From: a virus | Direction: 5' to 3' (one strand) | IMG/VR virus record: IMGVR_UViG_3300008740_000712 | Span: 32,001-96,000 of that record | Length of the DNA stretch: 64,000 nt | Shown: piece by piece, positions 8,541 to 64,000 of the stretch | Numbering within the stretch: the first letter of the stretch is position 1 | Layout: every line of letters begins with the position of its first letter | The notes under the pieces: model-generated | Seen by the model: only the letters and a program-made list of their open reading frames with translations | What the model was told of the DNA's origin: nothing | Databases searched by the model: none | Made by a program: the position numbers and the translations under genes

Positions 8541-8978
8541 TTACCTCGTAATTTGGACAGAAGCATAAAAAATGCCCACAGAAAGGAGAATCCCGGAAAG
8601 GGCACCACCAGCAAACCAAAAAGAAGAGTAGTCTTTACTTTCTTCTTCGACAATCTTGAGGAGCCTGTCGTTCTCCTTTTTCTGCGTTTCGATAATAAGG
8701 TCTTTCTTGCTGACTTGAGCAGATAGTTCCGCTTTTTCTCTTGCAGTGTCAAGTTCACATTTTGATCTTGTTTTGTCTTTTTCATAATCAACTTTGACCT
8801 GACACTTCTCTATTTCAAATTCCCTCTCGGCAAGAATCTTTGCACCTGTCTTAGAATCAATCAAGATCCCAGTGAAGGGTGCTTTTGTGTCCTTTTTTAT
8901 AACCACGATCTGTGATTCGTCAGCAAAGGATGCTGTTGTAAATGTAAATATCGCAATGAGTGCTAAAATTCTCTTCAT
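8541..8978 (-). CDS. Spanin-like protein: signal peptide, coiled coil and C-terminal transmembrane helix
   Basis: MKRILALIAIFTFTTASFA|DE looks like an SPase I signal with no lipobox Cys. It is followed by a charged coiled coil with two Cys and a C-terminal hydrophobic segment FWFAGGALSGILLSVGIFYASV. Confidence 0.5.
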   Translation of the reverse strand: MKRILALIAIFTFTTASFADESQIVVIKKDTKAPFTGILIDSKTGAKILAEREFEIEKCQVKVDYEKDKTRSKCELDTAREKAELSAQVSKKDLIIETQKKENDRLLKIVEEESKDYSSFWFAGGALSGILLSVGIFYASVQITR

Positions 8979-55039: not shown

Positions 55040-55426
55040 CTAATCACCTTTTTGGATACGATAGCTGTCCTCATCGAAATGTTGTGTTGAAAATTCAAAC
55101 AACTCTGAATTGTCGATCGCGATCATTTGGTGTCTCAATCCCCTGTAGACGTGAAAGTTTTCACCTGGTTCAAGAATTATCTCTTTACAATTCTCCAAAT
55201 CGTCTTCGTCGGAATAGAGAACCCTCATCCTCCCCGACTGTAAGTAGAAAACCTCGTCTTTCAATTTGTGATAATGCCAAGAGCATCGTTTTCCGGCCTC
55301 GAAGAAAAGTAACTTTCCGCAATATTCTTCGCAATTAACAATCCATCGTTCCCATCCCCACCCCTTGTCAACGTGGTTCATGGGTAATTCTACACTGTTC
55401 ATATCACTGTCTCCTATTTCTTCCAA
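55040..55426 (-). CDS. Cupin-fold sugar isomerase-like protein
   Basis: KGWGWE...SWHYHKLKDEVFY...GLRHQM (HxH...E...H cupin ligands). Confidence 0.8.
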   Translation of the reverse strand: MEEIGDSDMNSVELPMNHVDKGWGWERWIVNCEEYCGKLLFFEAGKRCSWHYHKLKDEVFYLQSGRMRVLYSDEDDLENCKEIILEPGENFHVYRGLRHQMIAIDNSELFEFSTQHFDEDSYRIQKGD

Positions 55427-56409
55427 AAATCATAAATACCTTTATCCAGTTCGTAATTGTCCCACACAAATCTATCTTTCATTGGCTGCTTTTGTGCCCA
55501 ATTCCACATCAGGGTTAATCCTTCTTCCAAACTTATCGAGTGTTCGAAACCTAACAAGTCAACTGATTTTTGCCAAGTGGACCATGCATGTTTGGCTTCG
55601 TGCCTTTGCTCCAAATAGACCGGTTTCAATTTAGTTCCTGCCACTTTTATCAAAGTCTCACACGCTTCATTAATCGTGCTCTCCTTAATCCCACCTAAGT
55701 TTATTATCTGATCGATACATTGGGGATTTTGAGATGCATTCCAAAACGGCAACAGAGAATCGTCAACATAACTGAATGCTCTTTTTTGCTCTCCGTCACC
55801 GAAAATTGTGGGACTAACCCCATTCATGATCTGGTACATCCAAATTCCCAGAACATTTCGATATTTATCCCAAATATTCTGATTTCTTCCATAGAAGTTG
55901 TGGGGTCTTATTATTGTATAGTCTAGACCATGCTGGTCATATGCTATTTTCAAATCCTGTTCAACAGAAAATTTTGCTACCCCGTAGGGATCTATCGGGC
56001 ACTGCTGAAGATCTTCGTGAAATGGTGGTTCATATTTATCTCCATATACTGACATCGAACTTGCGAATACGAACCTCTTAACGTCAAATTCAATGCTAGC
56101 GGTGATCAGATTCGTAGAGGATATTAAATTGTTTTCGTAATTGTATTTTCTTATAAAAGGACTAAGACCTTCCGCAGCATAGGCTGCGAAGTGATATACA
56201 ATTTCTGGTCTTTCTTTTTCGAATAAATCCTTAACTTTATCAAGATTTTTTAAATTGAATTTGAAAAACTTAACTCTTGAGTTTACGTTGCTCATATATC
56301 CACCGCTCAAATCATCGATGCCGATGACTTGGTGGTCTGTGTTTTCGAGAATCCAATCTGCCAATCGGGAACCTAAAAGACCTGCTACACCTGTAATTAA
56401 AATTTTCAC
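55414..56409 (-). CDS. NAD-dependent nucleotide-sugar epimerase/dehydratase
   Basis: Rossmann motif TGVAGLLG, ASSMSVY, catalytic YGVAK, RPHNFYG. Confidence 0.92.
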   Translation of the reverse strand: MKILITGVAGLLGSRLADWILENTDHQVIGIDDLSGGYMSNVNSRVKFFKFNLKNLDKVKDLFEKERPEIVYHFAAYAAEGLSPFIRKYNYENNLISSTNLITASIEFDVKRFVFASSMSVYGDKYEPPFHEDLQQCPIDPYGVAKFSVEQDLKIAYDQHGLDYTIIRPHNFYGRNQNIWDKYRNVLGIWMYQIMNGVSPTIFGDGEQKRAFSYVDDSLLPFWNASQNPQCIDQIINLGGIKESTINEACETLIKVAGTKLKPVYLEQRHEAKHAWSTWQKSVDLLGFEHSISLEEGLTLMWNWAQKQPMKDRFVWDNYELDKGIYDFWKK

Positions 56410-56410
56410 C

Positions 56411-57304
56411 TTATTTAAACCTACCCTTCAATAAACTGGACACGTCTTCGGTGGGACTCAATCCCTTATTTTTATGAACCGAATACATGAGTGCTGGGTC
56501 AATAGTGTGGCAAAAATAGAACTGTAATTGGTCTTTTACATTAAGTGGTGATATATCACTGATTTTTCTTGCATCTGTTTTTTCCCATGTCATTAATTCG
56601 GCACCCTTATCAGAAATAAAGAATTTTGCGAATGTTACGTCGTCACCAATACACTTTACCTCGTAAGGACTGCGTACCATATCCACCCTGTTCTCTCTCT
56701 CCTCTTTAACTAACTCTTCAATAAGTTTTCGACTGACCAGGAATGCGGAACCACTAGCAAACATTATGACAGGTGGTTGATTTTGATTGTGCCCGTTGTC
56801 GTAAACACCTGGACTACCAGCATACACATTGTCTCTTTTCCCCAGAGATTCAACATATTGTTTTAAGATATTCAAATCTATATAAGTTCCACAGTTTGTT
56901 CTCAACACATAGTCAAACTCTTCATTATCCAAAATCCACTCAAAAGCATCAATTGTTTTGTAATATATATTTTCTCGGCCCTCCTGGGTATCGGAGTAGA
57001 TACAATCATCAATTGCAAAAGGATGTCGCTTTCTTCGCACGTTGGTGCTGGCATCTTTAGGTGGTTGCCCTTCGTATATACAGGAGTCCTCGACCACATC
57101 TCTGTATTCAGATTCTTCAGGAAAATCAGTTCCTGGTCGATGCCCATATATGTAAAAAACTTTTACCCCGTCTACCTGCTGGGATGCCCACGTTCTACGG
57201 ACTGCTGTTACCATATCTGTGTAACTAGATGCTCGACCATCCTTGATGCATCTTCCGCAGACACATACATCATCATTCGATAAAACTATAACTGCTATTT
57301 TCAT
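56411..57304 (-). CDS. GT-A glycosyltransferase, GT31/galactosyltransferase-like
   Basis: KTIDAFEWILDNEEFDYVLRTNCGTYIDL, FASGSAFLVS and GDDVTF resemble GT31; the usual DxD is replaced by NCG. Confidence 0.6.
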   Translation of the reverse strand: MKIAVIVLSNDDVCVCGRCIKDGRASSYTDMVTAVRRTWASQQVDGVKVFYIYGHRPGTDFPEESEYRDVVEDSCIYEGQPPKDASTNVRRKRHPFAIDDCIYSDTQEGRENIYYKTIDAFEWILDNEEFDYVLRTNCGTYIDLNILKQYVESLGKRDNVYAGSPGVYDNGHNQNQPPVIMFASGSAFLVSRKLIEELVKEERENRVDMVRSPYEVKCIGDDVTFAKFFISDKGAELMTWEKTDARKISDISPLNVKDQLQFYFCHTIDPALMYSVHKNKGLSPTEDVSSLLKGRFK

Positions 57305-57344
57305 TCTGTCTCTCTCCTTAATTTACCCACCATTGGTAATGTAT

Positions 57345-58130
57345 TTACCATGCTGATCTTCCGCCATTCATCACTATGTTCTCACCCGTCATATAGGAAC
57401 TTGCCTCAGAACACAGAAAAACTATGGCACCTTTATATTCGTCCCTTTTAGCCATACGACCCATAGGAATTAGATTTGCAAGTTTCTCAACAAACTCAAC
57501 TGGCTGATTGTTGTAAACTCCTCCCGGACTCAAGCAATTAACTCTAATATTCTTTTCCGCAAAATAAGTGGCAAGATACTTTGTCATTCCCACAATTCCA
57601 AATTTAGAAGCAGAGTATGTTATCGGTTTTTTGCCATTTAAGTATATTCTTTGGTCAGGGGCAATGACACCCAAATCTGAGGAGATGTTCACAATTACAC
57701 CGGAGCCGTCGGATGCGAACTTGTTACAAAACACTTGGGAACACAAAAATGTTCCATCCAAACAAGTCTCTATTCCACTCTTCCATTCTTTTAGAGTCAT
57801 TGTCTCAAAATCTCCCCCTACTTTTCCCTCTGAAGAAACTGTGGGGTTTTTTGCTGCGTTATTTATTAAGACATTGACAGTAGGGTGGGCAGAGGCAGCT
57901 GCTTCAATTGTCTTTCTGTCTGTCACGTCCACAAAAACGGATCGTACTCTTTTTTGATCAAATTTCTCACACAATTTATCCGCAACCTCGGTGGCTTTTT
58001 CTAAGTCGTTATCTGCTATCACCACTGATCCTCCATGCTCCAGAATTGCCTCGGCGTGCATTTGACCCAACATTCCGGCACCACCAGTTATAAACACCGT
58101 CTTGCCCTTTAAATCAAAAATACTTGTCAT
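57345..58130 (-). CDS. Short-chain dehydrogenase/reductase, PtmA-like
   Basis: TGGAGMLG, NNAA, catalytic YSASK, SPGGVYNNQP. Confidence 0.85.
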   Translation of the reverse strand: MTSIFDLKGKTVFITGGAGMLGQMHAEAILEHGGSVVIADNDLEKATEVADKLCEKFDQKRVRSVFVDVTDRKTIEAAASAHPTVNVLINNAAKNPTVSSEGKVGGDFETMTLKEWKSGIETCLDGTFLCSQVFCNKFASDGSGVIVNISSDLGVIAPDQRIYLNGKKPITYSASKFGIVGMTKYLATYFAEKNIRVNCLSPGGVYNNQPVEFVEKLANLIPMGRMAKRDEYKGAIVFLCSEASSYMTGENIVMNGGRSAW

Positions 58131-58890
58131 ATAAATCCTTGAATATTTTTGTATGATTTCTTATTGTCGATAATTCATCACCCGGCTTTTCTCTGGCAGT
58201 CTGTAATATAAATTGCCCAGAATAGTCCACGGAACTTAATTTTTTAAATATTAGATCAAAATCTGTATCTCCGGTAGTGGGGGAGACTGTTTGTCTGTCA
58301 TATGTTCTGTCCTTTATGTGTACATTTACAATCTTTTCCCCGAAAAAATCTATAAACTCCTCGTGGTCAACACCGCAAGAAGTGATGTTTCCTGTATCAT
58401 ATGTAACACAAAAGTTATCACACAGACGCACTATGTCATTTAATTTATCGATTGGCATTTCGGACTCAAAAGCAAATTTTATCTCAGGATACTTATCTCC
58501 ATACTCCTTCACTATCTTACAAAAGTCCTGCCTCTCTTTGTCGTCATTTAAGTCACTTTCATCTAAAACAGGTATTGTCAAAATATACACCCCAATCGTC
58601 TGTGCCTGTCTGCAAACAGGATCTAAGTATTTTGCTAAGAACTCCCTGTTTGCTATGAAATTGCTGACTAACGTATCAAGACATATCGACAACACTGGTT
58701 TTTCTCTAATGTCATCGGGATTAAGAAATAATGGATTCTTATCAAAGGAATTGGGAGTAACCAACCACTCGACACCAGATAATCCTATTTTCTCCAAGGC
58801 ATCGAATTCGTTTCTCCAATATCTTGGGAACTCCTGATATAGACCGTCGGTGGGCCTCGTCAGTCGTCCTTGTAGCACCCCTATCTTCAT
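58114..58890 (-). CDS. Sugar-phosphate isomerase/epimerase (xylose-isomerase-like TIM barrel)
   Basis: MKIGVLQGRL, VEW, FESE, YDTGN and VHIKD metal-ligand pattern. Confidence 0.8.
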   Translation of the reverse strand: MKIGVLQGRLTRPTDGLYQEFPRYWRNEFDALEKIGLSGVEWLVTPNSFDKNPLFLNPDDIREKPVLSICLDTLVSNFIANREFLAKYLDPVCRQAQTIGVYILTIPVLDESDLNDDKERQDFCKIVKEYGDKYPEIKFAFESEMPIDKLNDIVRLCDNFCVTYDTGNITSCGVDHEEFIDFFGEKIVNVHIKDRTYDRQTVSPTTGDTDFDLIFKKLSSVDYSGQFILQTAREKPGDELSTIRNHTKIFKDLYDKYF

Positions 58891-59612
58891 TGCACAAACA
58901 TCCTGTTTAACCTCACCTCTTCAGAAATCATATGTCCGTCGTAAGAAATAACATGATGAGTATATTTTGCAACATCCTGAGTCGTCATAAAGGTATCATA
59001 AATTTGCCCCAACTTTTCAACTTCCTTGCCCATGTCGGTCTGAATCGATCCTGGGGAGATGCAGTACACTCTCACACCATCTTGCTTCAATTCCTTGAAC
59101 AAAGACCTAGACAAACCCAAGAGGGCGTGCTTTGAGGCACAATAAGCAGATGTCTTGGGGGAACCACCGTAGGCTGAAGAGGAAGCAATATTCACAATTC
59201 TGCCCCACTGATTTTTCTTCATGCCGGGTAAAAACTCTCGAATAATAACAAAAGGAGATTCTACATTCACCTTCATGCAATTTTGAAAATCCTTCGTTGT
59301 CATATCCTCGATAGAAGATATGGGAAAAGTGGCAGCTGCGTTGACTACGACATCGATGTTCCCAAAATCATTTTTGATTGTAGATGTCATACTCAGTACA
59401 GACTCACTATCCGACAATTCGCAGACATAAGTTCCAATCTTCTGTTCTTTCATTGCGATAAGTGATAACTCGTCTTTTAAATTCAGAAGCTTTTTCCAGT
59501 CTCTTCCCACCAAAACAACATTGTTTCCTGTTTTGAGAAACTCTTCACACATCGACTTTCCAAGTCCTCCATACGCACCTGTTATAAGAATATTTTTACC
59601 CTGTAGTGTCAT
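58887..59612 (-). CDS. Short-chain dehydrogenase/reductase
   Basis: TGAYGGLG, VNAAA, NIASS, catalytic YCASK. Confidence 0.88.
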   Translation of the reverse strand: MTLQGKNILITGAYGGLGKSMCEEFLKTGNNVVLVGRDWKKLLNLKDELSLIAMKEQKIGTYVCELSDSESVLSMTSTIKNDFGNIDVVVNAAATFPISSIEDMTTKDFQNCMKVNVESPFVIIREFLPGMKKNQWGRIVNIASSSAYGGSPKTSAYCASKHALLGLSRSLFKELKQDGVRVYCISPGSIQTDMGKEVEKLGQIYDTFMTTQDVAKYTHHVISYDGHMISEEVRLNRMFVQ

Positions 59613-60429
59613 CTTTTTTTCTCAACTTTTTAGCAATTGGGATTTCCGAATCATAAACAATCTTTGCTCCCGTTCCTAGCATCAGTTCCATTTTTCGAAT
59701 GCCATCAATTAAGGAATCGGAGTCTTCAATCGAAGCAGACTGATCTGAACCGTAGGCAGTCCTATCGTTGGTTATGTGAAATTCAATGCACTCTGCACCA
59801 AGAGCAACTGCACCGACGCAGGCGTCTAATCCACTATAGTGATTTGAAAAACCAACAGATAAATCAGGATAGTTTCCCTTTAGTGTTCGAATGTGTCTTA
59901 GGTTTATCTCTTCCGGTGCTGTGGGGTATGTGCTCGTACATGCTAGAACGATTTTTAAATTTTTAAGAATTCTTATTGCAGCAGAGATTTGCTCCGTAGT
60001 ACACATTCCGGTAGACAGAATAACAGGTTTTCCTGTTTCGTTTAATTTGTTTAAAAACTCCTTATCGGTCGCAAGTGCAGATGCCACTTTATGATATTTG
60101 ACATTTAAGTTTTCTTCAACAACATCGACACTATCGATATCCCAACAGGAAATAATGAATTCCATGCCCTTCTTGGCGGTGTATTCTTCCAACTCTTTAT
60201 ATTGCTCAATGGAGAATTCCAGACCTTCCTTCTGCTGTCGATTGGTGGTGCCCCAGGGTGATTCCCTACCATTGTCCAACTCCTCTTTGGTATAGACAAG
60301 TTCTATTGTTCTTTTTTGAAACTTAACAGCATTAGCACCAGATGATGCTGATTTATCTATTAGTTTCTTTGCCAGCTCTATATCACCGTTGTGGTTGATT
60401 CCTATTTCTGATATTACATATGTGGTCAT
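59596..60429 (-). CDS. neuB: N-acetylneuraminate/nonulosonate synthase (NeuB family, short form)
   Basis: SEIGINHNGD...AVKFQK, KVASA, ILSTGM, CTSTYP, GFSNH, IEFHIT; 277 aa, lacking the C-terminal SAF domain. Confidence 0.92.
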   Translation of the reverse strand: MTTYVISEIGINHNGDIELAKKLIDKSASSGANAVKFQKRTIELVYTKEELDNGRESPWGTTNRQQKEGLEFSIEQYKELEEYTAKKGMEFIISCWDIDSVDVVEENLNVKYHKVASALATDKEFLNKLNETGKPVILSTGMCTTEQISAAIRILKNLKIVLACTSTYPTAPEEINLRHIRTLKGNYPDLSVGFSNHYSGLDACVGAVALGAECIEFHITNDRTAYGSDQSASIEDSDSLIDGIRKMELMLGTGAKIVYDSEIPIAKKLRKKDDTTG

Positions 60430-61640
60430 TAGTCTCTCCTATTATTGAAATATTCAATTGTTTTTCTCAGTGCATCTGCCTTGCTCTTTGCGATCCCTAG
60501 ATTACGATAATTTGTCTTAATCTGCATTAATCTTGGTTGCAACTCCTCTGCCACCGGGCATATCCCCTTTTGGTAAGATACGTTGGAATAAATTTCCGGA
60601 TACCTTTTAACATATTCCCTATTATACATGAGGGGTTCTAGATACGGATTTTTCCAAGCGGCATAATATCCATCACCCCCAAGTTCGACATACTTGTCTC
60701 TAAACTCTTGCCAGATTACTCCCATGTGTGTGTCTCCATCATATCTTACTCCCAAAGTATAATACGAATGGACTGAATTGTAAAGAACTTTCTGAGGGGT
60801 TAAATAATCACACTCCCCAATTGCTTGCAGAAATAGATTTGCTACTGATTTTCTCATTTCTATTTTCTCTTCCAAGTCCTCGAATTGTGCCAAGGCAATT
60901 GCTGCGGAAAACTCACTGAGTCTGTAGTTCCAACCTAATGAGTCGTGTCTTTCGAAATCGGGATCTTGAAAATCATATTGGTTTGAGAACTTTATTTTTC
61001 CACCATCAGCGCTCAAATTCTTATAACCATGTCCTGCTACTTTTCGAGCAGACATTGCAAGATTCTCATCATTGGTCAATAGTATGCCACCCTCTCCGCA
61101 ACTCATTTGTTTAGCATTCTCGAAACTCCAACTAGAAAAGGAATTAGAAACACCTACTCGGTTTCCCTTATGTTGGGACAAGAGGCATTGCGCGTGGTCC
61201 TCAATGACTGGAATATTGTATTTTTCGGAGATCTCATTGATCCTACCCATGTCACAAACGGCACCGTATAAAGTGACGACAATAATTGCCTTTGTTGACG
61301 GAGTTATTTTTCTCTCTATATCCTCCGGATCTATAACAAAAGTCTCCGGATCGACATCTGCATAGACTGGGATTGCATTACACTGTATGATAGTGGATGT
61401 ATCCATGATTACCGTAAGTGCCGGTGTTATAACTTCGTCACCAGCACCAACACCGAGGGCCTCTAGGGCAGCATGTAAGGTTGCGGTGCCGGAATTCATG
61501 GCAATAGCATACTTGCATTCAAAAAAATCCGAAAACTTCTTTTCCAGTGTTCTGCACCAGGTGCCGTGTTCTGCGGGTTGGCCATCCAGTACCATCTTCA
61601 GGTATTTTAATTCATTTCCTGTATATTTGTCACTCTTCAC
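60429..61640 (-). CDS. DegT/DnrJ/EryC1/StrS PLP-dependent sugar aminotransferase
   Basis: NSGTATLHAAL, IEDHAQ, SFENAKQMSCGEGG (PLP lysine), GWNYRLSE. Confidence 0.93.
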   Translation of the reverse strand: MKSDKYTGNELKYLKMVLDGQPAEHGTWCRTLEKKFSDFFECKYAIAMNSGTATLHAALEALGVGAGDEVITPALTVIMDTSTIIQCNAIPVYADVDPETFVIDPEDIERKITPSTKAIIVVTLYGAVCDMGRINEISEKYNIPVIEDHAQCLLSQHKGNRVGVSNSFSSWSFENAKQMSCGEGGILLTNDENLAMSARKVAGHGYKNLSADGGKIKFSNQYDFQDPDFERHDSLGWNYRLSEFSAAIALAQFEDLEEKIEMRKSVANLFLQAIGECDYLTPQKVLYNSVHSYYTLGVRYDGDTHMGVIWQEFRDKYVELGGDGYYAAWKNPYLEPLMYNREYVKRYPEIYSNVSYQKGICPVAEELQPRLMQIKTNYRNLGIAKSKADALRKTIEYFNNRRD

Positions 61641-62397
61641 TTTTGCTCTCCTTCAAAATTGGTTTATTAATATTTTCCTGATTCTTCTTCCACTTCTCAT
61701 CAAGATAAAAATTAATATTTGCTAATTCAGGATTATCGCAAATCAACTTATATGCTTCTTGGAAGTTAATTGTTCTACCCTCTTGCAACAATCTTTTTAT
61801 CACAGATTCAAAAAAAACCAAGTCGTCTTCGTAATCCAGAGTCATTCTTACATTCTTTTTTCTATAACATTCTGGCACATCTTGTATTCTCTGGACATCG
61901 AACAGATCTGTTTCGGTGAAGTATGGTCTGATATATTCCGTCTTCTCTGTTGCCTTGATGTCGCAGACTTTTTTTAGAGAGTTGTAGGAAATTCCATAAG
62001 CATCATTATACAGTCCATGACCGTCTATAAAATCGACGTTGCTATTCTTGTTCTGCTCGAATATCAAATCAGCAAGTCCACAATCAAACAACAAATCATC
62101 TCCATCTACGTTCACAAAAAAATCAACCCCATACTCTTCACAGGCAGACTTCCATCGAACTAACTTGTCCTCGTTTGCGCCGCGGAAGAAGGATATTCCA
62201 TTCTCAGTTGCTATGTCGCACAAGGCAGTGTCCTCTTCTCTCTCGGTCGTACATAAAATAATTCTATCAGCATGTTTAGACTTCTTTAAACTGTCAATCA
62301 AGTAAAAGATAGTTGGTTTATCAACTATTTCCCTCATGGCCTTGAAGGGCAGCCTACTAGAATTTGCCCTAACAGATATAAAAATGCAATTACTCAC
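61630..62397 (-). CDS. CMP-nonulosonate cytidylyltransferase (SpsF/KdsB/NeuA family)
   Basis: SVRANSSRLPFKAM, FFRGANED, NVDGDD, RMTLDYEDD. Confidence 0.88.
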   Translation of the reverse strand: MSNCIFISVRANSSRLPFKAMREIVDKPTIFYLIDSLKKSKHADRIILCTTEREEDTALCDIATENGISFFRGANEDKLVRWKSACEEYGVDFFVNVDGDDLLFDCGLADLIFEQNKNSNVDFIDGHGLYNDAYGISYNSLKKVCDIKATEKTEYIRPYFTETDLFDVQRIQDVPECYRKKNVRMTLDYEDDLVFFESVIKRLLQEGRTINFQEAYKLICDNPELANINFYLDEKWKKNQENINKPILKESKSEE

Positions 62398-63155
62398 CCT
62401 ACACCACAGTCCAATAAATTGTCATGATTAAGATCCAGCATCGTATTCATGTACGGATCTATTTTAATGCAAGAATTTAGGGACAAGAGTCTCTTGAAGT
62501 AGGAGAGTTGAACCATCGCAGCATGGCTACCGTGACCAAAGGTTCTCCCATCCGTGTCGGCCTTGTCCATATGACCAGGGCAATAAAGGTCTTCATATCT
62601 TTCACCACCGGTATAGAAAGAGAATCCGGTTATAAGCAATTCTTTGATAGGATAGTTAAGTAAAGTTACGATGCTTGCCATGCCTGTGTGAAACTCTACA
62701 CCTATTTCTGCATATATCCTATTGTAATCCCTCACCCCAATCCAATAAAAAGGGAGGTCGTATTCGTTAATATCTTGAAAATTATGCACCACCTGACTTA
62801 CGTGGTTGTCCGGCCAATTGAGAAAATCTACGTCTTGGTGGGATGCTTTGGTGGCAGAACACACGACAAGTTTTAGATTTTTAAAATACTCTCGTCTGTC
62901 CTCCGACTCGATCTTCCTCTTTATACCTGGCATCCATTGCGTCCCGAAATTGCAAAACATAATATCTGTCCTGTTACCATAGTCCAACCTCTGTTGTTTT
63001 AGGGGAATGATCTCATTTGGTCGGCAGACTACATCATAGTCATCAAGATGCTTGTGAAGATTTTTTCCCTGTAGGTATCCGGCCGGACCAATTAAAGCTA
63101 CCGTCTTTCCCTGCACAATATCATACAAATCCTTGTTTATCTCCAACTTTTTCAC
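62394..63155 (-). CDS. GT29-like sialyltransferase
   Basis: Sialylmotif-L-like TVALIGPAGYLQGKNLHKHLDDYDVVCRPN...DYGNRT and motif-S-like HTGMASIVTLL...ITGFSF. Probable GTG start at 63155 coupled to the upstream TAG (track start 63239). Confidence 0.72.
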   Translation of the reverse strand: MKKLEINKDLYDIVQGKTVALIGPAGYLQGKNLHKHLDDYDVVCRPNEIIPLKQQRLDYGNRTDIMFCNFGTQWMPGIKRKIESEDRREYFKNLKLVVCSATKASHQDVDFLNWPDNHVSQVVHNFQDINEYDLPFYWIGVRDYNRIYAEIGVEFHTGMASIVTLLNYPIKELLITGFSFYTGGERYEDLYCPGHMDKADTDGRTFGHGSHAAMVQLSYFKRLLSLNSCIKIDPYMNTMLDLNHDNLLDCGVG

Positions 63156-63802
63156 TATTTGTAATCCATTGTGCAAACTTCTGCTTTTTTTCTTAGAATA
63201 GTCATACCATTGCATCTTGGAATTGTAGAATATTCCCACTCATCTAAATCCAACTCGGCAATTGCTCGATATGGGCCACCATGATCCCACTGTTTATCTT
63301 TCGAGTCCTGAACCGATCTATATTGGGGCTGTGAATTATAGTACATAAGATCGTGTAAAAGGAACAGGTCATTGGGTGTGGCATACTTGGAGATCAATTC
63401 TATCTCCCTCTTAACATGTTCATATGAATGCCAATCGTCAATATAAAAAATCCTAGACCTAGAAGAATTAGATGTTTCTTGCAATACTTCTTCCAGATCT
63501 TCTTCCAAGAATTTTATAGCATCTTTTTGGTGGAACTGCCATCTCTGCTTCCAGTGATCGGGGAATTGGAAGTCTGGTACTACCGGGTCAATATCGACCG
63601 AGATCAATTTTGAATCAATGATGTCGCAAGCACACAAGAAAGGCAAAGTGCTTCTAGCAGTACGGACTCCCAATTCTAAAATGAGACACGGCTTCATGGA
63701 TATCGAAAGTGAGAAGAGTGTCATAAGATGTTCATCGATATCTCCCTTGCCGTGTACCACAAGGTGCGTCAGTAAGTCAATTGGATTAATATTTTTATTC
63801 AT
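63155..63802 (-). CDS. Class I SAM-dependent methyltransferase (Methyltransf_24-like)
   Basis: ILELGVRTARST, ISVDID, YIDDWHSYE, LLHD. Confidence 0.88.
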   Translation of the reverse strand: MNKNINPIDLLTHLVVHGKGDIDEHLMTLFSLSISMKPCLILELGVRTARSTLPFLCACDIIDSKLISVDIDPVVPDFQFPDHWKQRWQFHQKDAIKFLEEDLEEVLQETSNSSRSRIFYIDDWHSYEHVKREIELISKYATPNDLFLLHDLMYYNSQPQYRSVQDSKDKQWDHGGPYRAIAELDLDEWEYSTIPRCNGMTILRKKAEVCTMDYK

Positions 63803-63829
63803 ATCTCTTTTCTCCTGAATCTATTGTAA

Positions 63830-63977
63830 TGGTGGAGGAGAGAGGATTCGAACCTCTGTCTCTTGTGTGCGAATTGGGTGTTTTTCCAATTAAACTACGG
63901 TATTTAACCGACAGACTCGAACTGCCATCTCTCAATTCATAGCACACACAATTGTTTTCCCACTAAACTACTCCCCC
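63830..63977 (-). ncRNA. 148-nt double-elbow tRNA-like RNA with alanine acceptor identity and no anticodon loop
   Basis: Acceptor GGGGGAG/CTCCTCC with G3.U70, A73 and encoded CCA. Two D arms (63970-63954, 63897-63880) and two T arms with TTCGA loops (63926-63910, 63857-63841). Confidence 0.85.
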
Positions 63978-63989
63978 TTTATAATTCTC

Positions 63990-63998
63990 ATTGTATCA
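63990..63998 (-). promoter_or_regulatory. Extended -10 promoter TG-A-TACAAT for the tRNA-like RNA
   Basis: TGATACAAT ends 12 nt upstream of G1, leaving a short 5' leader; the -35 region is outside the window. Confidence 0.55.
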
Positions 63999-64000
63999 CA

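What the first reader, a model, noticed from the sequence alone, without database searches (positions are those of the whole stretch)
63830..63977. A tRNA nested inside a tRNA: alanine-identity, anticodon-less, double-elbow RNA
Minus-strand sequence, parsed by hand: GGGGGAG TA GTTT-AGTGGGA-AAAC AA TTGTGTGTGC TAT GAATTGAG AGAT GGCAG-TTCGAGT-CTGTC GGT-TAAAT-ACC G TA GTTT-AATTGGAA-AAAC A CCCAATTC GCACACAA GAGAC AGAGG-TTCGAAT-CCTCT CTCCTCC A CCA. Seen in the sequence: the outer molecule has a full 7-bp acceptor stem, D arm 1, variable loop and T arm 2. Its anticodon stem (TTGTGTG/CACACAA) does not close in a loop. It continues through GC/GC and GAATTG/CAATTC into an inner module ordered variable loop, T arm, capped 3-4-bp mini acceptor hairpin, D arm, which is a circularly permuted tRNA core. 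Both cores keep U8/A14, the D-loop GG and a TTCGA T-loop. The Levitt pairs co-vary only in the nested fold (outer G15-C48, inner A15-U48), which argues for selected structure rather than a decayed duplication. Established: G3.U70 plus A73 is the AlaRS identity, and AlaRS does not read the anticodon. Inference: an alanylatable RNA that cannot decode and offers no anticodon loop to anticodon nucleases. It could be a decoy against tRNA-targeting defence, a bivalent elbow ligand for the ribosome, EF-Tu or RNase P, a stalled-ribosome alanine donor without an mRNA domain, or a non-ribosomal Ala donor. I do not recognise this architecture as a named family.
Basis: partly seen in the sequence, partly recalled or inferred. 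Interest (0 to 1): 0.93.

Follow-up and report, generated by a model that had tools for sequence, protein, structure and literature searches.

The report
Anticodon-less double-elbow alanine tRNA-like RNA
A marine phage encodes a conserved 148-nt RNA built like an alanine tRNA whose anticodon loop is replaced by a second tRNA "elbow"; it always sits next to a Fem/MprF-like transferase gene inside a sialic-acid-like sugar pathway, so it is probably a private alanine carrier for sugar decoration rather than for translation.

Summary
It belongs to a family of 32 complete copies in marine viral and metagenome contigs (102-156 bits with my covariance model; ordinary tRNAs score 52 bits or less).

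All seven helices covary: 29 of 42 pairs show double changes, and 95.8% of cells pair against 61% or less in slid controls. G1-C72, G2-C71, G3.U70, G4-C69 and A73, the AlaRS identity set, are invariant in 25 of 25 distinct sequences.

Rfam 15 has no family for it. Default ARAGORN calls nothing.

The main new result is genetic linkage. Every locus encoding a homologue of the upstream 255-aa protein (down to 28% identity) carries this RNA just downstream, always inside a nonulosonic-acid gene island. That protein models as a tandem-GNAT fold closest to FemX, Sbb17/Sba18, FemA and MprF, which are aminoacyl-tRNA-dependent transferases.

Best reading (about 0.55): a non-decoding carrier charged by AlaRS that feeds alanine to this transferase for sugar tailoring. 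Main rival: an intron-containing tRNA-Ala, since the buried triplet reads NGC in 22 of 25.

The inner "mini acceptor" hairpin is missing in most relatives, and the Levitt covariation is a single event.

The scan noted this stretch only in overlapping windows of the same genome.

The parts
63830..63977 (-). Whole 148-nt nested tRNA-like RNA, single copy in the 119-kb contig
   Evidence: Sequence. CM hit of 155.4 bits at 63827-63982. ARAGORN -i calls c[95830,95977] in genome coordinates.
63971..63977 (-). Outer acceptor stem, 5' strand (GGGGGAG), including G3 of the G3.U70 wobble
   Evidence: G1-G4 are invariant in 25 of 25 family members, while pairs 5-7 covary.
63830..63840 (-). Outer acceptor 3' strand (CUCCUCC), discriminator A73 and encoded CCA
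   Evidence: U70 and A73 are invariant in 25 of 25. CCA is encoded in only 6 of 25 distinct sequences, so it must be added in the rest.
63954..63970 (-). U8-A9 and outer D arm (GUUU / AGUGGGA / AAAC) with G18 G19
   Evidence: Helix 2 is 96% paired. U8:A14 holds in 25 of 25.
63942..63952 (-). 5' strand of the outer anticodon stem and its 4-bp extension (no loop follows)
   Evidence: Helix 3 has 9 pairs, 8 with double changes, and is 93% paired. The 5' strand carries 0-2 extra bases in different members.
63939..63941 (-). Conserved 3-nt bulge (UAU) between the outer and inner helices
   Evidence: The bulge columns are U19/C4/G2, A23/U2 and U22/G1/C1. The flanking pairs are nearly invariant in sequence: G45, G50, A51 and opposite U124, G126.
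63931..63938 (-). 5' strand of the inner 8-bp helix (the 'anticodon stem' of the inner body)
   Evidence: Helix 4 has 8 pairs, 7 with double changes.
63910..63930 (-). Inner variable loop (AGAU) and inner T arm (GGCAG / UUCGAGU / CUGUC)
   Evidence: Helix 5 has 4 of 5 pairs with double changes and is 98% paired. The T-loop UUCRA is conserved.
63898..63909 (-). Mini hairpin (GGU-UAAAU-ACC, then G) in place of an inner acceptor stem
   Evidence: It is present here but replaced by a 4-nt linker in most relatives, so it is not a conserved part of the family.
63879..63897 (-). Inner U8-A9, D arm (GUUU / AAUUGGAA / AAAC) and A26
   Evidence: Helix 6 is 98% paired, with 3 of 4 pairs showing double changes. 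The inner U8:A14 holds in 25 of 25.
63862..63878 (-). 3' strands of the inner and outer helices, containing the conserved U-C-G-C-A that reads as U33-CGC-A37 if the inner module is skipped
   Evidence: Column 124 is U in 25 of 25. Column 125 is C19/A5/U1 and covaries with column 50. Column 126 is G in 25 of 25. Column 127 is C22/U3.
63841..63861 (-). Outer variable loop and outer T arm (AGAGG / UUCGAAU / CCUCU), with A49-U65, G50-C64 and A51-U63
   Evidence: Helix 7 has 3 of 5 pairs with double changes. G52-C62 and G53-C61 are invariant.
63978..64000 (-). Part of the 54-nt spacer between the upstream Fem-like gene and the RNA. That gene lies just outside the window, at L001:1833-2600, minus strand.
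   Evidence: ORF list. A weak promoter-like site was found. In relatives L007, L009, L015, L017, L019 and L021 a TTGACA-17-TATAAT site sits 8 nt upstream of G1.
63155..63802 (-). First downstream gene, a CmcI-like methyltransferase that begins the nonulosonic-acid island
   Evidence: Pfam Methyltransf_24 and RMNT_CmcI. The rest of the island is annotated.

Best explanation
The RNA is a dedicated, translation-inert alanine carrier. Shown: it is a conserved structured RNA with a complete tRNA acceptor/T/D body. The first four acceptor pairs, including G3.U70, and A73 never vary. The anticodon stem runs on through a conserved 3-nt bulge into a second, acceptor-less tRNA elbow. Its gene is always coupled to a gene for a tandem-GNAT protein with a Fem/MprF/Sbb17-like fold, inside a phage nonulosonic-acid (NulO) island. 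Inferred steps follow. (1) The transcript is matured like a tRNA: RNase P at the 5' end, 3' trimming, and CCA addition where CCA is not encoded. (2) Host AlaRS charges it. AlaRS reads G3.U70 and A73 and ignores the anticodon, so alanine is one of the few amino acids an anticodon-less tRNA can carry. (3) With no anticodon loop and a roughly 70-nt second body on the anticodon arm, it cannot decode, so the Ala-RNA pool stays out of translation. (4) The adjacent transferase moves alanine from the 3' end to an amino group of a NulO precursor made by the DegT aminotransferase. It is the only N-acyl-transferase candidate in the island. (5) The product is CMP-activated and transferred by the GT29-like enzyme. 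The second elbow most likely acts as a recognition handle that separates this carrier from host tRNA-Ala, or as an anti-determinant for the ribosome. That part is the least supported.
For: Structure and selection: (32 copies; 29 of 42 pairs with double changes; the fold is recovered without the model). Alanine identity: G1-C72, G2-C71, G3.U70 and G4-C69 in 25 of 25 while pairs 5-7 covary, and A73 in 25 of 25. That G3.U70 with A73 defines AlaRS recognition independently of the anticodon is established knowledge. Linkage, protein first: 31 of 31 loci with enough downstream sequence carry the RNA. Two more show its start at a contig end. This includes homologues at 28-31% identity (L037-L039). 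Gene order around the pair changes, but the order transferase then RNA does not. Linkage, RNA first: a pattern scan of the viral contigs finds only contigs that also have the protein. Partner fold: Foldseek top hits are MprF C-terminal domain, Sbb17/Sba18 and FemX (E 7e-6 to 1e-4). VIA-align gives FemX Z 15.5, Sba18/Sbb17 15.2, FemX-Wv 14.2, FemA 14.1 and MprF 14.0, above tandem-GNAT acetyltransferases (13.5 or less) and single GNATs (about 11). Atlas structural neighbours carry Acetyltransf_6 and FemAB. Island content: NeuB, DegT, cytidylyltransferase, GT29-like, methyltransferase and SDRs, with no other acyltransferase. Precedents: staphylococcal non-proteogenic tRNA-Gly with A49-U65 and A51-U63 serving Fem enzymes, and FmhB reading the D/T elbow (PMC7826273). 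This RNA has A49-U65 and A51-U63, and 51:63 is A-U in 17 of 25. Against a decoding role: GCG is the rarest Ala codon in the phage at 7.5%, and no other tRNA is present in the 119-kb contig.
Against: Charging, maturation and transfer are all inferred. The partner protein has no significant sequence match to FemAB, DUF2156 or any PDB chain. Its model is only moderate (pLDDT 74.8). Tandem-GNAT acetyl-CoA enzymes score only about 2 Z units lower, so it could be an ordinary N-acetyltransferase. The buried U-NGC-A motif fits a relic or functional Ala anticodon. A plain tetraloop would suffice to block decoding, so the conserved second elbow is not explained by this model alone.
Confidence: 0.55

Rival explanations
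1. It is an interrupted tRNA-Ala gene. The 63-80-nt inner module is an intervening sequence that is removed, leaving a normal decoding tRNA-Ala(NGC).
For: Read across the junction, U33 is invariant, G35 is invariant, C36 occurs in 22 of 25 and A37 in 17 of 25. The triplet is CGC, AGC or UGC, all alanine anticodons, in 22 of 25, which matches the acceptor identity. A 5-bp stem at 27-31/39-43 is kept.
Against: No splicing route is known for such an insert in bacteria or phages. There is no group I intron signal and the insert is far too short for one. It is not a bulge-helix-bulge, because both bulges lie on the 5' strand. The 'intron' keeps a full tRNA elbow under covariation (helices 4-6). Position 34 covaries with its helix partner: GC 19, UA 2, AU 1. 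L037-L039 keep the Ala acceptor identity but read UAG or AGU. Position 37 is U in 6 of 25. In this window ARAGORN reads Arg(UCG) instead. GCG is the rarest Ala codon. Linkage is to a transferase gene, not to tRNA clusters.
Confidence: 0.12
2. It is a structured tRNA-like element with a role unrelated to aminoacyl transfer. Candidates are an RNase P processing or stability signal inside the glycan operon, a titrator or decoy for tRNA-binding factors (anticodon nucleases, modification enzymes, EF-Tu), or a regulator. The neighbouring GNAT would then be an ordinary acetyl-CoA N-acetyltransferase of the NulO pathway (a PseH or LegH analogue).
For: NulO pathways need an N-acetyltransferase and the island has no other. 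Weak Pfam hits are to generic GNAT families. Tandem-GNAT acetyltransferases reach Z 13.5. The RNA sits between genes of one operon.
Against: A processing signal or decoy does not need an invariant G3.U70, A73 and G1-G4 while the rest of the acceptor covaries. It also does not need an encoded CCA in some members. Nothing links a decoy to a sugar island, yet the pairing with this one protein family survives rearrangement of every other neighbour and 28% protein identity.
Confidence: 0.2
3. It is a YrlA-type Y RNA that tethers a Ro60/Rsr protein.
For: The inner module plus the long helix gives the only non-tRNA Rfam hit (YrlA, 20.6 bits, E 0.075). The order T arm, hairpin, D arm is that of the YrlA tRNA-like domain (PMC4201824). 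Similar permuted modules in other phage tRNA clusters score 35 bits.
Against: The score is far below the gathering score of 69. No TROVE/Rsr gene is present in the contig, which is 66% complete. The part that would bind Ro is replaced by a complete aminoacylatable tRNA body. The partner gene is a GNAT, not Rsr.
Confidence: 0.03
4. It is a minimal tmRNA-like ribosome-rescue RNA that donates alanine without a message.
For: An alanine-identity acceptor ending UCCACCA, and a long helix leaving the position of the anticodon stem as in tmRNA helix 2. There is a weak partial hit to permuted tmRNA (15.8 bits).
Against: There is no tag reading frame or pseudoknots. ARAGORN in tmRNA mode finds nothing. 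A full D arm is present, unlike the tmRNA tRNA-like domain. Genetic linkage is to sugar genes.
Confidence: 0.02

Closest known systems
Non-proteogenic tRNA-Gly isoacceptors of Staphylococcus aureus and S. epidermidis, which serve FmhB/FemA/FemB (PMC7826273)
   Same: A dedicated aminoacyl donor for a Fem-type transferase, kept out of translation. It has weak-EF-Tu T-stem pairs (A49-U65, A51-U63, also present here). The transferase reads the D/T elbow.
   Different: The staphylococcal tRNAs are ordinary 75-nt cloverleaves with an anticodon loop. Here the loop is replaced by a second tRNA elbow, the amino acid is alanine, the owner is a phage, and the presumed acceptor is a sugar rather than lipid II. 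The function here is inferred, not shown.
YrlA Y RNA-like family (Rfam RF02553; PMC4201824)
   Same: A tRNA-like elbow written in permuted order (variable loop, T arm, capped acceptor-like hairpin, D arm), closed by a long helix.
   Different: The match scores 20.6 bits against a gathering score of 69. There is no Ro-binding helix and no Rsr gene. The closing helix leads into a real acceptor/T/D body carrying the alanine identity. Most relatives lack the hairpin.
tRNA-like domain of tmRNA
   Same: Charged by AlaRS through G3.U70. The 3' end is UCCACCA. It is non-decoding, and a long helix leaves from the anticodon-stem position.
   Different: There is no mRNA-like domain, pseudoknots or SmpB link. 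A complete D arm is present.
Fem-like aminoacyl-tRNA-dependent amide synthases acting on amino sugars (Sbb17/Sba18, PDB 9wqw-9wqy), together with FemX and the MprF C-terminal domain
   Same: These are the best structural matches of the partner protein (Z 14-15.5). They set a precedent for transferring an amino acid from aa-tRNA onto an amino sugar.
   Different: Those enzymes use ordinary cellular tRNAs. There is no detectable sequence similarity. Catalytic residues were not mapped.
Disrupted tRNA genes: intron-containing and circularly permuted tRNAs of archaea and Cyanidioschyzon (PMC3978253)
   Same: An insert at the anticodon loop, with the inner part in the order 3' half then 5' half.
   Different: Those rely on bulge-helix-bulge motifs and the archaeal/eukaryal splicing endonuclease. 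No such motif is present here, and the host is bacterial.

Membership tests
Canonical decoding tRNA (Rfam RF00005 / ARAGORN default) | Cloverleaf with a 7-nt anticodon loop closing a 5-bp stem, detectable at the curated threshold | tested here: not met
   ARAGORN default finds 0 genes. Rfam tRNA gives two partial hits of 27.7 and 19.4 bits, below the gathering score of 29. The anticodon stem continues as a helix.
Canonical decoding tRNA (Rfam RF00005 / ARAGORN default) | Acceptor stem, D arm and T arm with U8, A14, G18G19 and a UUCRA T-loop | tested here: met
   All are present in the outer body and, apart from the acceptor, again in the inner body. They are conserved in 25 of 25.
AlaRS substrate (tRNA-Ala identity) | G3.U70 wobble pair | tested here: met
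   G.U in 25 of 25 distinct family members, while pairs 5-7 of the same stem covary.
AlaRS substrate (tRNA-Ala identity) | A73 discriminator with G2-C71 and G4-C69 | tested here: met
   Invariant in 25 of 25.
AlaRS substrate (tRNA-Ala identity) | Actual aminoacylation with alanine | not testable with these tools
   This needs an in vitro charging assay.
YrlA (RF02553) | Score at or above the Rfam gathering threshold (69 bits) | tested here: not met
   20.6 bits, E 0.075.
YrlA (RF02553) | Association with an Rsr/Ro60 (TROVE) gene | tested here: not met
   No PF05731 match in the 119-kb contig, while positive controls matched. The contig is only 66% complete.
tmRNA | mRNA-like tag reading frame and pseudoknots | tested here: not met
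   ARAGORN in tmRNA mode finds none. The only hit is a 15.8-bit partial match to the T arm and acceptor.
Intron-containing tRNA | A recognisable splicing signal: a group I core or a bulge-helix-bulge | tested here: not met
   No intron family appears at E up to 10. The insert is 63-80 nt. Both bulges lie on the 5' strand of the helix.
Intron-containing tRNA | A consistent anticodon matching the acceptor identity once the insert is removed | tested here: inconclusive
   The triplet is NGC (Ala) in 22 of 25, but UAG or AGU in L037-L039. Position 37 is U in 6. ARAGORN's own calls vary among Ala, Arg, Leu, Val, Thr, Asn and 'stop'.
Fem/MprF-type aminoacyl-tRNA transferase (the partner protein) | Tandem GNAT-like fold of Fem / DUF2156 | tested here: met
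   Foldseek gives E 7.5e-6 for 5vrv, then 9wqx and 7z5y. VIA-align gives FemX Z 15.5 (rmsd 2.7, 174 aligned), Sba18 Z 15.2 and MprF Z 14.0. The model has pLDDT 74.8.
Fem/MprF-type aminoacyl-tRNA transferase (the partner protein) | Sequence membership in Pfam FemAB, FemAB_like, Acetyltransf_6 or DUF2156 | tested here: inconclusive
   There are only sub-threshold hits: FemAB_like E 0.045 in 1 of 10 members and Acetyltransf_1 E 0.0075 in 2 of 10. No PDB sequence hit was found.
Fem/MprF-type aminoacyl-tRNA transferase (the partner protein) | Catalytic and CCA-binding residues, and aa-tRNA dependence | not tested
   No residue-level superposition was available. Invariant W240, K241 and R243 near the C-terminus are candidates.
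Non-proteogenic donor tRNA (staphylococcal type) | T-stem pairs 49:65, 50:64 and 51:63 of the weak EF-Tu-binding type | tested here: inconclusive
   The window has A-U, G-C, A-U. In the family 49:65 is A-U in 15 and G-C in 10, and 51:63 is A-U in 17 and G-C in 3. The comparison values come from PMC7826273. Affinity was not computed.

The most novel reading that the evidence does not exclude
Marine phages carry a two-gene module: a Fem-like transferase and its own private aminoacyl-carrier RNA. The RNA is a tRNA-Ala body fused through its anticodon stem to a second tRNA elbow. The host AlaRS charges it, the ribosome cannot use it, and the transferase recognises it through the extra elbow. The module alanylates a nonulosonic-acid sugar. 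This would be the first viral tRNA-dependent glycan tailoring system and the first natural tRNA remodelled into a pure carrier.
Probability: 0.45. Interest if true: 0.9.

Novelty: new variant of a known kind. Interest (0 to 1): 0.85.

Why it matters
Dedicated non-translational tRNAs have so far been documented only in staphylococci (PMC7826273), and those are still normal cloverleaves. This RNA would show a different solution: remove the anticodon entirely and add a second elbow. That route is open mainly to alanine, because AlaRS ignores the anticodon.

It would also extend tRNA-dependent chemistry to viral sugar pathways and explain how a phage could build an N-alanyl nonulosonic acid.

It offers a compact natural scaffold, a two-elbow tRNA, for structural work on elbow recognition. 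The family is absent from Rfam and invisible to default tRNA finders, so it is a gap in annotation as well.

Tried and rejected
- **Close DNA relatives in GenBank phages:** blastn found only generic tRNA pieces.
- **Exact 3'-end pattern in the viral contigs:** nothing found.
- **Neighbour proteins as single queries in the viral contigs:** no relatives. An alignment query was needed.
- **The look-up of sequencing runs:** As a result there are no expression or processing data, and read laying was not used.
- **Literature:** I found no paper describing a nested or double-elbow tRNA, or a tRNA-linked NulO pathway. One search failed on syntax.
- **T4 stable RNAs species 1 and 2 (rnaC, rnaD):** considered as relatives. 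The model does not match them, so they were rejected.
- **Cellular genomes:**
  - The protein pattern scan and the RNA pattern scan of 185,579 species genomes found no member.
  - Among 802 sampled genomes of two phyla, one distant fused homologue appeared, with no RNA within 1.5 kb.
  - All these searches are limited by pattern or by sampling, so the result is 'not found in those searched'.
- **P0001 against GenBank phages by tblastn:** no match.
- **A tandem reading as two side-by-side cloverleaves:** rejected. The two middle segments pair only with each other, and most relatives have just 4 nt where two acceptor strands would be needed.
- **K-turn reading of the UAU bulge:** rejected by inspection. 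The pairs after the bulge are Watson-Crick G-C and A-U, not sheared G.A.
- **Complex prediction:** not used, because it cannot take RNA.
Full report
**1. What is at the coordinates**

- a 7-bp acceptor stem (GGGGGAG / CUCCUCC) with G3.U70, A73 and an encoded CCA;
- U8-A9 and a D arm;
- an anticodon stem that does not end in a loop, but continues through a UAU bulge into a second helix;
- an inner module in the order variable loop, T arm, 3-bp capped hairpin, U8-A9, D arm;
- then back down both helices into a variable loop and a second T arm.

Default ARAGORN finds no tRNA or tmRNA in the window or in the whole 119-kb viral contig. Rfam 15 has nothing at gathering score.

At permissive thresholds the only hits are two partial tRNA matches (27.7 and 19.4 bits, gathering score 29) and a weak YrlA match (20.6 bits against 69). 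The YrlA match covers the inner module and the long helix.

The single-sequence fold is only modestly better than shuffles (z -2.0). The window alone is therefore suggestive, not proof.

The contig is a distant T4-like tailed phage. It encodes a portal, large terminase and primase, and its portal is 42-43% identical to those of Flavobacterium and Microcystis myoviruses. The RNA is single copy.

**2. Relatives, and the linkage that explains them**

DNA searches and single-protein queries found no close relatives.

The upstream 255-aa ORF ends 54 nt before the RNA, just outside the window at L001:1833-2600 (minus strand). It has homologues in the protein database. An alignment of these (A1) retrieved 5 viral and 29 marine metagenome loci.

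Every one of the 31 loci with enough downstream sequence carries the same kind of RNA on the same strand:
- In most it lies within about 5-60 nt of the stop codon.
- In L012, L013 and L016 one gene intervenes.
- L033 and L034 are cut by the contig end just after the RNA begins.
- L040 holds only a protein fragment.

The linkage holds for homologues at only 28-31% identity (L037-L039).

An RNA-first pattern scan of the viral collection recovered only contigs that also have the protein. The same scan of 185,579 species genomes found no member.

The surrounding genes are always a nonulosonic-acid island: NeuB synthase, DegT aminotransferase, CMP-type cytidylyltransferase, GT29-like transferase, CmcI-like methyltransferase and SDRs. 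Their order differs between loci, while the order transferase then RNA is constant.

**3. The fold is under selection**

A covariance model built from five sequences scores all 32 complete copies at 102-156 bits. Ordinary phage tRNAs score 52 bits or less.

On 25 distinct sequences (alignment A4), pair counting gives:

| Measure | Observed | Control |
|---|---|---|
| Cells forming standard pairs | 95.8% | 43-61% with 3' partners slid by 1-3 columns |
| Pairs with changes on both sides | 29 of 42 | shuffle mean 18.2 |
| Cells with changes on both sides | 147 | shuffle mean 40.5 |
| Shuffles reaching any observed measure | 0 of 500 | n/a |

Each of the seven helices has compensatory changes. This includes the two helices joining the bodies (8 of 9 and 7 of 8 pairs) and the inner T and D stems.

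That alignment was fitted to the model, so I repeated the test on a plain MAFFT alignment with RNAalifold. The same nested fold came back, with 36 pairs, 23 of them compensatory.

A side-by-side reading as two cloverleaves is impossible. The two middle segments pair only with each other, and most relatives have only a 4-nt linker between the inner T and D arms.

**4. What is and is not conserved**

Invariant in 25 of 25:
- G1-C72, G2-C71, G3.U70, G4-C69 and A73;
- U8:A14 in both bodies;
- the GG of both D loops, and G53-C61 with the UUCRA T-loops.

Acceptor pairs 5-7 covary freely. The frozen G.U therefore reflects selection on identity, not on pairing.

CCA is encoded in only 6 of 25, as in ordinary tRNA genes that depend on the CCA-adding enzyme.

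The inner 'mini acceptor' is dispensable. Relatives have either no hairpin (4-nt linker) or one of 3-6 bp. The inner module is thus an acceptor-less elbow, and it cannot itself be charged.

The junction is unusually conserved in sequence. On the 5' strand it reads G-Y, then the bulge Y-A-U, then G-A. On the 3' strand it reads U-C-G-C-A. The columns for A51, U124 and G126 are invariant.

The outer 15:48 pair is G-C only in this window and A-U elsewhere. The inner pair is always A-U. This is consistent with the nested fold, but weak.

Several relatives have a TTGACA-17-TATAAT site 8 nt upstream of G1. Others abut the transferase stop codon. The RNA is therefore either separately transcribed or co-transcribed, and then trimmed.

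**5. The partner protein**

Pfam, PHROGs and a PDB sequence search give nothing significant.

An AlphaFold2 model from the alignment (pLDDT 74.8, pTM 0.74) was compared with the PDB:
- Foldseek's best hits are the MprF C-terminal domain (5vrv, 6lv0), the aminoacyl-tRNA-dependent peptide synthases Sbb17/Sba18 in complex with an amino sugar (9wqx, 9wqy), and FemX, with E 7.5e-6 to 1e-4.
- VIA-align ranks FemX (Z 15.5), Sba18/Sbb17 (15.2), FemX-Wv (14.2), FemA (14.1) and MprF (14.0) first.
- Tandem-GNAT acetyltransferases come next (13.5 or less), then single GNATs (about 11).
- The ESM Atlas places it next to Acetyltransf_6 and FemAB clusters by structure.

The ranking is consistent, but the margin over acetyl-CoA enzymes is small.

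A whole-library profile search finds 472 cluster representatives, 11 of them close. Distant members are fused to sulfotransferase or asparagine-synthase domains. This is an undescribed tailoring-enzyme domain family.

The window's island contains no other N-acyl-transferase, although NulO pathways need one after the aminotransferase step. That last point comes from established knowledge of the Pse and Leg pathways.

**6. Most likely mechanism**

Combining these results, I read the RNA as a private alanine carrier:
- It is matured like a tRNA.
- Host AlaRS charges it, reading G3.U70 and A73 and not the anticodon (established).
- It cannot decode, because it has no anticodon loop and carries a second body on that arm.
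- The adjacent Fem-like enzyme uses it to alanylate an amino group of a NulO precursor.

The closest precedent is the set of staphylococcal non-proteogenic tRNA-Gly species. They serve the Fem enzymes, bind EF-Tu weakly through A49-U65 and A51-U63, and are distinguished by FmhB through the D/T elbow (PMC7826273).

This window has A49-U65 and A51-U63, and 51:63 is A-U in 17 of 25.

The role of the second elbow, as a recognition handle or a steric block, is inference only.

**7. The main rival**

With introns allowed, ARAGORN calls these loci tRNA-Ala(CGC or UGC) with a 63-80-nt insert. For this window it calls tRNA-Arg(UCG).

Read across the junction, the triplet is an alanine anticodon (CGC, AGC or UGC) in 22 of 25, with U33 invariant. 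This is striking and keeps the intron reading alive.

Against it:
- There is no group I signal or bulge-helix-bulge.
- No splicing route for such an insert is known in bacteria.
- The insert keeps a covarying tRNA elbow.
- Position 34 covaries with its helix partner.
- Three members with alanine acceptors read UAG or AGU, and U37 occurs in six.
- GCG is the rarest alanine codon in this phage, at 7.5%.
- The linkage is to a transferase gene, not to translation genes.

I read the motif as a relic of descent from a tRNA-Ala, now fixed within a conserved junction.

**8. Comparison with known families, and novelty**

It is not a member of the Rfam tRNA, YrlA or tmRNA families. The T4 species 1 and 2 RNAs do not match.

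I found no description in the papers searched. The scan's own notes mention it only on this same stretch.

It combines two known modules, a tRNA-Ala body and a YrlA-like permuted elbow, in an arrangement I could not find described. The proposed working principle, a dedicated non-translational aminoacyl donor, is known from one bacterial genus only.

I therefore class it as a new variant of a known kind, of high interest. The structure and the linkage are established by computation. The function is inferred.

Noticed in passing
L003:6905-7024 (-) and L005:2757-2876 (+), IMG/VR contigs 3300014206_001120 and 3300014204_006750: A permuted tRNA-like module with an anticodon-like hairpin (loop CUGCUAA), T arm, 5-bp capped acceptor hairpin and D arm, closed by a 9-bp helix. 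It gives a weak YrlA hit of 35.5 bits.
   Followed up: partly
L003:6764-6897 (-) and L006:8185-8313 (-): Rfam calls full-length tRNAs of 134 and 129 nt (42-44 bits) with inserts of about 55-60 nt at the anticodon loop. These lie in phage contigs where default ARAGORN sees nothing at that place. They may be other kinds of interrupted or extended phage tRNAs.
   Followed up: no
L006:11360-11834 (-): A GOLLD RNA match (131.7 bits, just under the gathering score of 150) with a tRNA-Arg embedded inside it, in a phage tRNA cluster. A YrlA-like elbow module (34.9 bits) sits directly after another tRNA-Arg at 8612-8670.
   Followed up: no
L002:1171-1235 (+) and L004:3977-4009 (-): An acceptor-less T-arm / 9-nt linker / D-arm module closed by a helix, lying inside an 18-26-gene phage tRNA cluster.
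   Followed up: no
window 55040-63802 (-): The 11-gene nonulosonic-acid island has an aminotransferase, a synthase, a cytidylyltransferase, two glycosyltransferase-like genes, a methyltransferase and SDRs. It has no recognisable PseH, LegH or NeuD-type N-acetyltransferase.
   Followed up: partly
P0029, P0036, P0044, P0086: Distant relatives of the partner protein's domain are fused to sulfotransferase, DMFA2_C or asparagine-synthase plus DUF1796 domains. This points to a wider, unnamed family of tailoring enzymes.
   Followed up: partly
L007, L009, L015, L017, L019, L021, the 45 nt upstream of the RNA: A consensus TTGACA-17-TATAAT promoter ends 8 nt before G1 of the RNA. In other members the RNA starts 5-10 nt after the transferase stop codon with no such site.
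   Followed up: partly
L012:2241-2891 (+): In L012, L013 and L016 a 216-aa ORF is inserted between the transferase gene and the RNA. These are the only loci where the two are not direct neighbours. The ORF was not annotated.
   Followed up: no
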